Source of the DNA: the human T2T-CHM13v2.0 reference genome, Homo sapiens
DNA length: 64,000 bases
Direction: 5' to 3' (one strand)
Assembly: GCF_009914755.1 (NCBI RefSeq)
Contig: NC_060925.1
The first letter of the stretch is position 1, and each line of letters opens with the position of its first letter. Below the pieces are notes generated by a model. That model was given only the letters and a program-made list of their open reading frames with translations, did no database searches and was not told the DNA's origin. The position numbers were made by a program, and so were the translations under genes. This document shows, one piece after another, positions 53,453 to 63,049 of this stretch.

Positions 53453-53513
53453 CCTCCTTTTGCTTTTTTAGGTCCAGGCGTGGATGGCAGGAAGGGGTTG
53501 ACTGTCTTTTCCT
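53453..53513 (-). CDS. SPATA21: SPATA21 coding exon, short form (EKTVNPFLPSTPGPKKAKG), 61 nt
   Basis: gctccag|AGGAAAAG ... GGAGG|gtaagt. Joining it to the 34-nt first exon gives MYTEEEKTV, and the whole chain sums to 1410 nt (469 aa). Confidence 0.85.
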
Positions 53514-53736
53514 CTGGAGCCACGACGGACATTGGGGGCATTGCTTCCTGAGAGCTGTCCCCATGTCCCCCTGGGCTGGGCTCTGGCGGAGCCTCCTGTG
53601 GCCTGATGTGTGGGACACCTGCCTCCTTGGGGTGCTTGCCTCCCAGTGGCTGGCCATGGCTGGCCAAGCGGCAGCAAGGCTCTGCTGGCTGCACCATGTC
53701 TGCCTGGTGACTGGGGGTGGATTGATATCCGGAGCC
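53453..53736 (-). CDS. SPATA21: Predicted long form of the same SPATA21 exon (GSGYQSTPSHQADMVQPAE...KKAKG), 284 nt
   Basis: Acceptor gtgtccttgtccttgacag|GGC, phase 0, open frame through to the shared donor. Confidence 0.65.
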
Positions 53737-54051
53737 CTGTCAAGGACAAGGACACCACGGCTGGGGAGCTCCATCCTCGTTCCCAGGTGAACCTCAATGC
53801 TCCAGGCGAACTGGAGACCAGTTATTACACACTTACTAGGGTCCCAGCACTTCAGGCATCATCTTACTTAATTCTCCTAGTGCCCCTAGAAGGTAGCACA
53901 GGTACTCCCACATTTTGAAGGGTGAGGAAATTGAAGCCCAGAGAAGGCGTGGCCTACCCAAAGAACCACACTTCCCTATGGGAGTGGAATGAGAGCCTGG
54001 AAAATTGAGAAGATCCCCTTTAAATAGGGTTTTCCTTTGTGTGTGTGTGTA

Positions 54052-57000
54052 TTTTTTTTTTTTTTTTGAGACAAGTCTCACTCTGTCACCCAGGCTGGAG
54101 TGCAGTGGCAAGAACACAGCTCATTGTAGCCTTGACCTCCTGAGCTCAAGGGATCCCCCTGCTTCAGCCTCCCAAGTAGCTGGGACTACAAATACCTGTC
54201 ACCACGCCTGGCTGATATTTTTTAATTTTTGGTAGAGATGAGGTCTCACTATGTTGCTCAGGCTGGTCTTGAACTCCTGGGCTCAAGCATTCCTCCTGCC
54301 TCAGCCTCCCAAAGTGCTGGGATTACAGGCATCAGTCACCATGCTCAGCCTTAATGGGATTTTCCAAGGGATACTTCAAAGAACAAGAATCCTTCATGAG
54401 CCTCCTTAAAAAGAGGAGGTTTTGGCCAGGTGTGGTGGTTCACACCTGCAATCCCAGAATTTTGGGAGGCTGAGGGGCAGGTGGATCACTTGAAGTCAGG
54501 AATTCATGACCAGCCTGGCCAACATGGAGAAATTCTGTCTCTACACAAAATTAGCTACGCATGGTGGCTCATGTCTGTAATCCCAGCTATTTGGGAGGTT
54601 GAGGGACGAGAATCACTTGAACCCAGGAGGTGGAGGTTGCAGTAAGCCATGATCACACCACTGCACTCCAGCCTGGGCGACAGAGTGAGACTCTGTCTCT
54701 TGAAAAAAAATAATAAAGGCCTAAGTGGGTGGATCACACGAGATTAGGAGTTCAGGACCAGCCTGGCCAACATGGTGAAACCCTGTCTCTACTAAAAACA
54801 CAAAAATTAGCTGGGCGTGGTGGTACGTGCCTGTAATCCCAGCCACTCAGGAGGCTGAGGTGGGAGGATCACTTGAACCCAGGAGGTGGAGGTTGCAGTG
54901 ACCCAAGATCACACCCCTGCACTCCAGCCTGGGCAACAGGGTGAGACTCCATGTCAAAAAAAAAAAAAAAAAAAAAGTGGTATATTATGGTATATCCATA
55001 GAATGGAAATATTACTGAGCAACCAAAAGAACAACATGTTGATACACACAATACATGAATTTCTTTCTCTTTCTCTCTCTCCTTTTTTTTTTTTTTTTTT
55101 TTTGGAGACAGAGTCTCACTCTGTTCTCCAGGCTGGAGTGCACTGGCATGATCTCAGCTCACTGCAACCTCCGCCTCCCAGGTTCAAGTGATTCTCCTGC
55201 CTCAGCCTCCCGAGTAGCTGGGACTACAGGCACCTGCCACCATGCCCAGCTAATGTTTATATTTTTAGTAGAGACGGGGTTTCACCAGGTTGGCCAAGCT
55301 GGTCTTGAACTCCTGACCTCAGGTGATTCACCCGCCTCAGCCTCCCAGAGTGCTGGGATTACAGGCTGAGCCACCGCACCCGACCTAGATGAATCTCAAA
55401 TAGTCATGTGGAGTGAACGAAGCCAGACAGAAAGAATGTACACTGTACAATTTCATTTGTGTAAAATTCCACGAAATACAAACAAATCTATAGTGATAGT
55501 TGGTAGTCGCCTGGGGATAGACTAGTGGGAGGGGGGATGAGAAAGGGCATGAGGAAATGGTTGGGGTGATGGCTATGTTTGCTTTCTTGATTGTGGGGAT
55601 GGTTTTGTGGGTGTGTACATATGTCAAAATATTAAATTGTACACTTAAAGTATGTGCAAGTGAATGCCAATTATACCTTACTGAAGCTGTTAAAAATAAA
55701 TCTTACCAGGCTGGGTGCGGTGGCTCACACCTGTAATCCCAGCACTTTGGGAGGCTGAGGCGGGCGGATCACGAGGTCAGGAGGTTGAGACCATCCTGGC
55801 TAACACGGTGAAACCCCGTCTCTACTAAAAATACAAAAAAATTAGCCGGGCATGGTGGCGGGTGCCTGTAGTCCCAGCTACTGGGGAGGCTGAGGCAGGA
55901 GAATGGCATGAACCTGGGAGGCAGAGCTTGCAGTGAGCCGAGATTGCGCCACTGCACTCCAGCCTGGGCGACAGAGCAAGACTGTCTCAAAAAAAAAAAA
56001 AATCTTACAGATAAATAAAAAAAGATCTTGTGGTCAAATAAGTTTGGGAAAGGCAATATACTCTAACCATATCTTTTTAAAATTTTTTATTTATTTTTTT
56101 ATTTTTATTTTTTTTGAGACAGGGTTTCACTCTGTCACCCAGGCTGGAGCACAGTGGTGTGATCTTGGCTCACTGCAGCCTGGACCCCAGGCTCAGGGGA
56201 TCCTCCCATCTCAGTATCTGGAGTAGCTGGGGCCACAGACATGTGCCACCACATCCAGCTAACTTTGGTATTTTTTGTAGGAACGGGGTTTCACCATGTT
56301 GCCCTGATCTCAAACTCCTGGGCTCAAGCAATCCTCCCACCTCAGCCTCCCAAAGTGCTGGGATTACAAGCACGAGCCACGGCGCCTGGCCTCTAATCAT
56401 ATCTTGCAAAATCTTACAAAGGCTCAGCAGCTAGTAAACTGCTTCCAGGATATCCTAGCATACAGAAACCTGTTTCAGCTTTGTTAAACTCAGCATGTCC
56501 CAATATTATCTGTATACAGAACCTGGCACCTCCTCCCTCCCCCCTGCACCCATTGACATACCGTGGGGCCACTCTGGAAACAAGACTTATTTTTATTTTA
56601 TTTTTATTTTTTTGAGACGGAGTTTTGCTCTCATTGCCCTGGTTGGAGTGCAATGGCGCGATCTCAGCTCACTGCAACCTCCACCTCCCGTGTTCAAGCA
56701 ATTCTCCTGCCTCGGCCTCTTGAGTAGCTGGGATTACAGGCATGTGCCACCACACCCGGCTAATTTTATATTTTTTAGTAGAGACAGGGTTTTACCATGT
56801 TGGCCAGGCTGGTCTTGACCTCAGGTGATCTGCCTCCTTCGGCCTCCAGAAGTGCTGGGATTAACAGGCGTGAGCCACCATGCCCGGCCTGGAAACAAGA
56901 CTTAAATGCTTGTGATGTAGGCTGGGGGAATAGCCCAGTGACCCACAGACTGAGTGCTTGACATCTTCAGGGCACAGAGGTGAGCAAACATTCTGTCACC

Positions 57001-62135: not shown

Positions 62136-62329
62136 TAAACATATTTGATGGAAAGAGGCTGAGAGGTGTGATGGAAGCTTAGGATGCAGGCTGGGCTCTG
62201 GGGAGGGGCATGGAGGGAAGCCCTGAGTAGCTCTCAGGAGAATAAAGCTGGGCTGGAGGCTGTGAGGGGAGTTTGGAGGCCATGCAAGGCACCTAGAAGA
62301 GCGAGTAGGCAATTCTGGGTTTGCTCACC

Positions 62330-62830
62330 CTGCAGCTCTTTCCGTTACAGAAGCCAGCATTGTTTTTGGGAAGCTTCTCTTCTCCATTCAGCCCATGGGG
62401 CTCAGTGGAGCCACCTATCACCTCTGTCTCCATTGTATCAAGAGATCCAGACCACTCCCCACTGCCATGGTGATTGGTTCAAGGATGAGCATCTGACCAC
62501 AATCTGGGCCAATGACAGTGATGCTAGAGACTTGTTTCAACTATTGCAAAGAGGCTCACTTCCTGTTGGAATGCTAAACCAGAGGGTGTAAGATGGGAAG
62601 ATGTAATCCTGGAGTGGCCAGGGCAATCCCTGCCATCTTGCAGGGAGAGCTTGCCTGAGAATGAATCCAACACGGAGGAACATAGAGCCAAGAGATACTC
62701 ATTTAGCACATTGATCTAGCCATACCTGAAGTCTATGAAGGCATGTGTCAGTTACCCAAACTGATATATTCTCTTTTCTGCTTAATCCAGTTTGAATTGG
62801 GTTTTGTGTCCATTTTTAACAGAGTCTTAA
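62330..62830 (+). mobile_element. Old MLT1 (J/K-like) LTR remnant just downstream of the SPATA21 ATG exon
   Basis: ggtgattggttcaaggatgagca...gggagagcttgcctgagaatgaatccaacac...gcttaatccagtttgaattgggttt. Confidence 0.65.
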
Positions 62831-62920
62831 TTAAAGCAGCTGGGGAGGAAGCCTGGGCAGGGGAAGGGAAAGGTGCCAGCTAGGAGTGAATGGATCAGAA
62901 CATGGGGTGCAGGTCCCTAC

Positions 62921-63049
62921 CTTGCTGACTCCTGGTATGATGGGCTCAACACCAGCCCTCTTTATGGTGATCCTCAGGCCAGGACTTGGCTGCGTCCCTG
63001 GAGCCTTGGTTCTACCCTCCGTGTACATCTGGGTGTTTCTATTGTCCAT
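62921..63049 (-). CDS. SPATA21: Predicted long form of SPATA21 first coding exon (43 codons, ...EPIIPGVSK)
   Basis: Open frame to donor AAG|gtaggg, phase 0. Confidence 0.6.
63016..63049 (-). CDS. SPATA21: SPATA21 first coding exon, short form (MDNRNTQMYTE)
   Basis: Strong Kozak GGCATCATGG; donor GAGG|gtagaa; exon acceptor tttctcctgtag at 63102-63101, giving 51 nt of 5'UTR. Confidence 0.85.

What the first reader, a model, noticed from the sequence alone, without database searches (positions are those of the whole stretch)
53453..63049. Hidden long SPATA21 reading frame: four phase-matched exon pieces add 226 aa
Seen: 63049-62921 (129 nt, ends phase 0), 59693-59542 (152 nt, 0 to 2), 57409-57202 (208 nt, 2 to 0) and 53736-53453 (284 nt, 0 to 2). 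All have GT-AG boundaries and no stops, and they join in frame to the remaining exons for 2088 nt (695 aa). The familiar 469-aa form instead jumps from a weak internal donor (G|gtagaa, 63016) to a weak internal acceptor (gtggctccag, 53513). Three consecutive phase matches in non-repeat islands are unlikely by chance. I recall rodent Spata21 being much longer than the human protein, which would fit. Inference: this is the ancestral, and perhaps major, isoform, with a long disordered P/Q/E/G-rich N-terminus.
Basis: partly seen in the sequence, partly recalled or inferred. Interest (0 to 1): 0.8.

Follow-up and report, generated by a model that had tools for sequence, protein, structure and literature searches.

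The report
Long SPATA21 isoform, already annotated
The four extra exon pieces are real and give the 695-residue form of the testis protein SPATA21 that other mammals, including mouse, carry as their normal form, but most of it is already in predicted human gene models, so it is a correct reading and not a discovery.

Summary
Observation confirmed. The four minus-strand pieces (63049-62921, 59693-59542, 57409-57202, 53736-53453) have AG/GT borders and phases 0>0>2>0>2. They join the remaining NM_198546 coding exons into 2088 nt including the stop, 695 aa; the curated short form gives 469 aa. In-frame stops lie 2-27 nt outside the borders of B, C and D.

The reading as the ancestral isoform is supported. 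The extra 226 residues align colinearly, piece by piece, with SPATA21 of 20 of 20 chosen placental mammals (45-92% identity). They also align with rodents: mouse 681 aa, 73 of 226 identical.

It is not hidden. Human RefSeq XP_016856706.1 (isoform X3, 667 aa) equals residues 45-677 of this frame, with one difference. The hub's table lists 53453-53736 and 57202-57409 as exons of other transcripts. Orangutan, macaque, capuchin and marmoset models carry the whole N-terminus.

No call showed the 62921>59693 junction in a human record or tested which form dominates in human testis. The extension has no Pfam domain and no predicted secondary structure. Novelty: already known. Interest: low.

The parts
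62921..63049 (-). Coding part of the first coding exon in its long form (A-long, 43 codons, ATG at 63049). The exon runs on past the short-form donor at 63016.
   Evidence: The start M-D-N-R-N...T-E-G-R and the sequence after it are shared by most orthologues.
63016..63049 (-). Coding part of the same exon as used by the curated short form NM_198546.1. The donor is AGG|GTAGAA, 5 of 9 matches to the consensus.
   Evidence: Hub table.
59542..59693 (-). Exon B (152 nt, phase 0 to 2). It is skipped in the short form. It holds the Met at which human isoform X3 starts.
57202..57409 (-). Exon C (208 nt, phase 2 to 0). It is skipped in the short form and is the best conserved of the four pieces in most of the 20 orthologues compared.
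   Evidence: Listed by the hub as an exon of other RefSeq transcripts.
53453..53736 (-). Exon D in its long form (284 nt, phase 0 to 2). The short form uses only 53513-53453, through an internal acceptor.
   Evidence: Listed by the hub as an exon of other RefSeq transcripts.
30298..53099 (-). The nine downstream coding exons shared by both forms: 53099-53051, 41575-41133, 40735-40650, 36638-36501, 35573-35502, 35378-35261, 32425-32253, 31054-30877, 30355-30298. They include the EF-hand region.
   Evidence: Hub table.

Best explanation
This is the full-length, ancestral coding isoform of SPATA21, an EF-hand protein cited in one paper as a marker of elongating spermatids.

The long mRNA uses the donor at 62921, includes exons B and C, and enters exon D at 53736. 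The curated 469-aa form uses a weaker donor inside the first coding exon (63016) and an acceptor inside exon D (53513). That removes 678 nt, or 226 codons, in frame.

Of the nine combinations of these sites that I translated, three keep the frame: long donor with B-C-D, short donor with short acceptor, and long donor straight to D-long with B and C skipped. The other six shift it.

The extra segment adds a low-complexity, probably disordered N-terminal region ahead of the helical and EF-hand part, which is unchanged. Shown here: the borders, the frame, orthology of every piece, and presence of most of the frame in predicted human and primate models. Inferred: that the segment is a fast-evolving docking or regulatory tail and is not part of the calcium-binding fold, and that the long form is made in human testis.
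For: Borders and frame. Stops bracket the exons.

Human annotation. The exon D peptide is 100% identical to human XP_016856706.1 isoform X3. Residues 1-633 of that protein equal residues 45-677 of the 695-aa frame with 1 difference.

Orthologues.
- The first 260 residues of the macaque long form found 51 proteins at E<=0.001, from 2e-163 to 6e-27. Apart from two unnamed rows they are placental-mammal proteins, mostly named SPATA21.
- In an alignment of the window-encoded protein with 20 chosen orthologues, the extra 226 residues are 45-92% identical in 20 of 20. The shared remainder is 53-91% identical.
- The profile search lists mouse (681 aa), Rattus rattus (683 aa), hamsters, voles, chinchilla and beaver. 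Mouse aligns across all four pieces, with 73 of 226 identical over 195 aligned.

Frame logic. The short donor joined to B-C-D stops at codon 44, which fits X3 starting at the Met in exon B.

Splice sites. The long-form donors match the consensus at 7-8 of 9 positions, against 5 of 9 for the short donor.

Transcript evidence. A Macaca fascicularis protein record (Q95LY8) contains B-C-D sequence joined across both exon borders.

Protein features. The four peptides have no Pfam family. The EF-hand matches lie downstream at about residues 461-512. There is no secondary structure in residues 1-300 of the model.
Against: - No call showed a human record with the 62921>59693 junction. Human X3 starts inside exon B, and the hub's '2 more' exons are not named.
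- The RefSeq 'selected' transcript and the hub table give the short form.
- Most orthologue proteins are automatic predictions. Pipelines report only open frames, and 2 of the 51 are flagged 'LOW QUALITY PROTEIN'.
- Human-macaque identity in the extension (194 of 226, 86%) is lower than in the rest (401 of 437, 92%). By my own rough estimate it is close to what unconstrained sequence would show, so the constraint in primates rests on the intact frame and not on residue conservation.
- The structural model is poor throughout (mean pLDDT 36), so 'disordered' is weakly supported.
- A search of the paper library for five tryptic peptides of the extension found 0 papers. Supplements were not searched.
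Confidence: 0.85

Rival explanations
1. The exons are an ancestral relic in humans. Transcripts that include them exist but are minor or unproductive, and the 469-aa form is the working human protein. The long frame is still open only because too little time has passed for it to decay.
For: - The curated, selected RefSeq transcript is the short form (hub table).
- Human X3 starts inside exon B and not at the shared ATG. That fits a transcript whose upstream frame is broken.
- Short-form models with the same T-E|E-E-K join appear for several species, although several are UniProt records whose basis I could not see.
- Residue identity with macaque in the extension is near my rough neutral expectation.
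Against: - The 678 nt are open and free of gaps against macaque: 226 of 226 positions aligned.
- They are also open in orangutan, proboscis monkey, capuchin and marmoset models.
- The long-form splice sites are as good as or better than the short-form ones.
- The long form is the only form listed for mouse.
Confidence: 0.13
2. The four open, phase-matched pieces are a chance pattern in intronic sequence and do not code for anything.
For: None beyond the prior that short open frames are common. B, C and D each have a second open frame.
Against: Every piece has orthologous protein matches across placental mammals. Two of the pieces have exactly the coordinates of annotated RefSeq exons (hub table). 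Stops bracket the borders.
Confidence: 0.01

Closest known systems
Mouse SPATA21 (P0105, 681 aa, named 'spermatogenesis-associated protein 21 [Mus musculus]')
   Same: It has the same layout: start M-E-N-R-N-T, a long N-terminal region colinear with pieces A-long, B, C and D, then the shared helical and EF-hand part. The shared part is 292 of 437 identical.
   Different: The extension is only 73 of 226 identical, with gaps (195 positions aligned). It is about 14 residues shorter overall.
Human XP_016856706.1, SPATA21 isoform X3 (P0005, 667 aa)
   Same: Its residues 1-633 equal residues 45-677 of the 695-aa frame, so it contains exons B, C and D-long and their junctions.
   Different: - It starts at the Met in exon B and lacks the first 44 residues.
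- It ends by reading through the donor at 30877 as far as 30774 instead of using the last exon.
- It has Q where the window encodes R (codon CGG, 41170-41168).
Macaca nemestrina SPATA21 isoform X1 (P0008, 696 aa), with the Pongo, Sapajus and Callithrix models
   Same: These have the complete long form including A-long. Macaque is 194 of 226 identical in the extension with no gaps. Orangutan is 209 of 226 identical.
   Different: They are predicted models of other species. The orangutan model (642 aa) has a different C-terminus.
Human NM_198546.1 (469-aa curated form)
   Same: It has the same ATG, the same first 11 residues and the same last 458 residues.
   Different: It lacks the 226 residues, because it uses the donor at 63016 and the acceptor at 53513 (hub table).

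Membership tests
SPATA21 orthologue group, long (mouse-type) isoform | The N-terminal region is colinear with the orthologues through all four pieces. | tested here: met
   20 of 20 chosen orthologues align in every piece, with 45-92% identity over the 226 residues; 14 further or repeated species, including 7 rodents. Pika, dugong and beaver models lack or differ in piece A.
SPATA21 orthologue group, long (mouse-type) isoform | The shared start codon is used, and the frame reads on past the short-form donor (T-E followed by G/D/C-R...). | tested here: met
   20 of 20 aligned orthologues continue past that point. The window frame does the same.
SPATA21 orthologue group, long (mouse-type) isoform | The downstream helical and EF-hand part is unchanged. 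| tested here: met
   the last 458 residues are identical in the long and short translations; 53-91% identity to orthologues.
SPATA21 orthologue group, long (mouse-type) isoform | There is human transcript or protein evidence for all four junctions. | not testable with these tools
   B-C, C-D and D-next are present in XP_016856706.1, which is a predicted model. The A-long>B junction was seen only in models of other primates. No RNA or peptide data were available.
EF-hand domain pair (Pfam PF13499) | The score reaches Pfam's gathering cut-off. | tested here: inconclusive
   24.1, 24.4 and 23.7 bits against a cut-off of 30 for the macaque, mouse and human X3 proteins. Many orthologues carry precomputed PF13499 or PF13833 labels. 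The four extra peptides have no match.

The most novel reading that the evidence does not exclude
In human testis the 695-aa form is the principal SPATA21 protein. The curated 469-aa reference would then be a minor splice product made through a weak exonic donor, and so lineage-restricted, because that donor cannot exist where the orthologue encodes D or N at that position. If so, the selected reference transcript hides 226 coding residues from variant interpretation.
Probability: 0.35. Interest if true: 0.3.

Novelty: already known. Interest (0 to 1): 0.15.

Why it matters
The matter is mainly one of annotation. If the long form is the main human product, the selected 469-aa transcript under-represents the gene. 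Variants in exons B and C and in the two exon extensions (678 coding nt) would then be scored as intronic in pipelines that use only the selected transcript. This gene has appeared in male-fertility and essential-tremor candidate lists (seen only as titles and listings).

Biologically, the long form adds a fast-evolving, probably disordered N-terminal tail to a spermatid EF-hand protein. That is ordinary for testis genes.

Tried and rejected
- Paper searches found no paper on SPATA21 isoforms; 55 papers hold 'SPATA21', 25 listed. 'SPATA21' plus 'isoform', 20 papers; the full protein name, 1 paper. 'Spata21', 'knockout' and 'fertility', 9 papers.
- I read only the passages around the gene name in PMC8700991, PMC3961179, PMC12063418 and PMC4132703.
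  - PMC4132703 names SPATA21 as a representative gene for 'differential use of 5'-exons' in lung squamous carcinoma RNA-seq.
  - PMC8700991 lists SPATA21 among candidate PKA-RI-alpha partners from a mouse yeast two-hybrid screen.
  - PMC12063418 uses it as a marker of elongating or elongated spermatids in pig.
  - PMC3961179 concerns only a neighbouring lncRNA.
- In PMC13600778 the gene name lies beyond the 300,000 characters held.
- The search for five tryptic peptides of the extension found 0 papers. Supplements, where such peptides would be listed, were not searched.
- Pfam found nothing in the four peptides.
- The AlphaFold2 model was too poor (mean pLDDT 36, pTM 0.22) to justify a fold search.
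- Rfam over 52000-64000 gave only a Metazoa_SRP match inside a masked repeat.
- I did not run the unnamed representative-protein search, because without names it could not say how far beyond placental mammals the extension reaches.
- dN/dS and PhyloCSF-type tests were not possible, because no other mammalian DNA is held.

Full report
**What is in the sequence.**
- The ATG is at 63049, with A at -3 and G at +4. The exon can run on to 62921 (AAG|GTAGGG).
- Exon B is 59693-59542 (cag|GTC ... AGG|GTGAGC).
- Exon C is 57409-57202 (ttttccccag|GAA ... CAG|GTAACC).
- Exon D is 53736-53453 (acag|GGC ... AGG|GTAAGT).
- The short-form donor (AGG|GTAGAA after 63016) and acceptor (ctccag|AGG before 53513) lie inside the first and last of these pieces.

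A script that joined the pieces to the nine downstream coding exons of NM_198546.1 gave 2088 nt with a single terminal stop, 695 aa. Phases are 0>0>2>0>2. The curated exon set gave 469 aa. The stretch removed in the short form is 95+152+208+223 = 678 nt, exactly 226 codons.

**More than chance.** The used frame is closed by stops very near the splice sites.
- B: the first stop begins 2 nt past the donor.
- C: there is a stop 27 nt before the acceptor and another 7 nt past the donor.
- D: there is a stop 4 nt before the acceptor and another 2 nt past the donor.

I translated nine combinations of these splice sites, and three keep the frame:
- A-long with B-C-D (695 aa);
- A-short with D-short (469 aa);
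- A-long joined directly to D-long (575 aa).

The other six hit early stops. For example, A-short+B+C+D stops at codon 44 and A-long+D-short at codon 82.

Against the recalled consensus MAG|GTRAGT, the long-form donors match at 7, 7, 7 and 8 of 9 positions. The short donor matches at 5 of 9. The internal acceptor has 13 of 20 pyrimidines, no worse than the B and D-long acceptors, so only the donor is clearly weak.

**What it is.** The exon D peptide (94 aa) found 8 proteins at E<=0.001 among longer proteins.
- The best is human XP_016856706.1, 'spermatogenesis-associated protein 21 isoform X3' (667 aa), at 100% identity.
- The others are orangutan, macaque, proboscis monkey, capuchin and marmoset proteins.

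The fetched sequences show that the orangutan, Macaca nemestrina (696 aa), capuchin (696 aa) and marmoset (688 aa) models start at the shared Met and run through A-long, B, C and D. Human X3 starts at the Met in exon B. Its residues 1-633 equal residues 45-677 of the 695-aa frame with one difference: Q where the window encodes R, codon CGG at 41170-41168. It then reads through the donor at 30877 as far as 30774.

So the B-C, C-D and D-next junctions are already in a predicted human RefSeq model. The table supplied with the finding lists 53453-53736 and 57202-57409 as exons of other transcripts, 'and 2 more' that it does not name. No call showed a human record with the A-long>B junction. That A-short+B shifts the frame would explain why X3 starts inside B, but this is inference.

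**How old it is.**
- The first 260 residues of the macaque long form found 51 proteins at E<=0.001, from 2e-163 to 6e-27. Apart from two unnamed rows they come from placental mammals: strepsirrhines, carnivores, bats, whales, ruminants, pig, rhinoceros, mole, tree shrew, colugo, rabbit, elephant and dugong. Two are flagged LOW QUALITY PROTEIN.
- In an alignment of the window-encoded protein with 20 chosen orthologues, every piece aligns in all 20. Identity over the extra 226 residues runs from 92% (orangutan) and 85% (macaque) to 45-61% outside anthropoids. The shared remainder is 53-91% identical.
- A profile of 25 orthologues found 151 proteins at E<=1e-5, of which 120 were listed. They include mouse (681 aa), Rattus rattus (683 aa), hamsters, voles, deer mouse, chinchilla, beaver and squirrels.
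- Mouse aligns across all four pieces, but weakly: 73 of 226 identical over 195 aligned positions, against 292 of 437 in the shared part.

The long form is the common form of placental mammals. Nothing here tests marsupials or beyond.

**Caveats on constraint.** Most orthologues are automatic predictions, which can only be open frames. Human-macaque identity in the extension (86%, no gaps over 226 positions) is, by my own rough estimate, close to what unconstrained sequence would give. The argument for constraint in primates rests on the frame staying open and gap-free in six primate lineages and across placentals. No codon-level test could be run.

**What the extension looks like.**
- It is 56% P+Q+E+G+S and 18% hydrophobic, against 39% and 26% in the rest of the protein.
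- None of the four peptides matches a Pfam family. Sub-threshold EF-hand matches (about 24 bits against a cut-off of 30) lie downstream at about residues 461-512 of the macaque protein.
- An AlphaFold2 model from the 25-sequence alignment has no helix or strand in residues 1-300. The first helix is 302-335. The whole model is poor (mean pLDDT 36, pTM 0.22), so this is only consistent with disorder.
- Conservation in the extension is sparse, with small islands such as K-K-Q-S-S-W-x-P-Q-E-G and P-E-G-L-Q-Q.

**Most likely mechanism.** Two coherent splice-site pairings of one pre-mRNA give a full-length protein with a disordered N-terminal tail, or a form lacking that tail. Both have the same calcium-binding core. 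The borders, frames and orthology are shown. Inferred: that the tail acts as a docking or regulatory segment in spermatids, and that the long form is made in human testis.

**Literature.** No paper in the held library deals with SPATA21 isoforms. From passages only:
- SigFuge (PMC4132703) names SPATA21 as a representative gene for differential use of 5' exons in lung squamous carcinoma RNA-seq.
- PMC8700991 lists it among candidate PKA-RI-alpha partners in mouse.
- PMC12063418 uses it as a marker of elongating or elongated spermatids in pig.

Five tryptic peptides of the extension occur in no main text. Supplements were not searched.

**Verdict.** 'Hidden' is not: the isoform is the named form in mouse, the predicted form in other primates, and largely present in a predicted human model. 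Which form dominates in human testis remains open, and it is the only point with some annotation value.

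Noticed in passing
P0012 (Q95LY8_MACFA), compared with window 59693-53514 and 31054-30298: This Macaca fascicularis protein (627 aa) looks like a chimeric clone. Residues 11-419 equal long-form residues 238-646. Residues 418-602 equal long-form residues 55-239 (part of B, all of C, the D extension), placed inside exon-12 sequence. The last exon is then read out of frame. 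Both joins lie inside exons at short overlaps, which suggests template switching. Even so, the clone carries spliced B-C and C-D junctions. Its N-terminal join reads T-E-E-K, whereas the human GT-AG join gives T-E-E-E-K, so it is 3 nt different.
   Followed up: partly
window 41168-41170 (-): The window encodes R (CGG) where human XP_016856706.1 and the orangutan and capuchin proteins have Q (L-L-H-Q-S-S). This is probably a missense polymorphism of this assembly.
   Followed up: partly
window 30774-30884 (-): The C-terminus of human isoform X3 (37 residues, with 34 new residues after the shared G-N-R) comes from reading through the donor at 30877 into the intron, not from a separate exon.
   Followed up: yes
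window 62921-63049 joined to 53453-53736 (-): Skipping B and C together (360 nt) while keeping A-long and D-long also stays in frame and would give a 575-aa product. No protein of that structure was seen among the hits inspected.
   Followed up: partly
window about 53690 (-), the Met in D-M-V-Q-P-A-E-P of exon D: Seal, armadillo and aardvark models (508-530 aa) start at the residue aligned with this Met. This points either to partial models or to a downstream start in some transcripts.
   Followed up: no
window 61334-61450 (-): Rfam Metazoa_SRP match at exactly the gathering score (70 bits), inside a masked repeat (60812-61455). It is most likely an Alu element and not an SRP RNA gene.
   Followed up: no
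P0072, P0077, P0078, P0085, P0098, P0100: Short-form models with the same first-exon-to-exon-D join exist for lemurs, a colobus, a squirrel monkey, a lynx and a porpoise. Whether they rest on RNA evidence or on projection of the human reference could not be told. The porpoise join reads V-E-E-K where whales encode C after the E, so a GT donor at the human position seems unlikely there.
   Followed up: no
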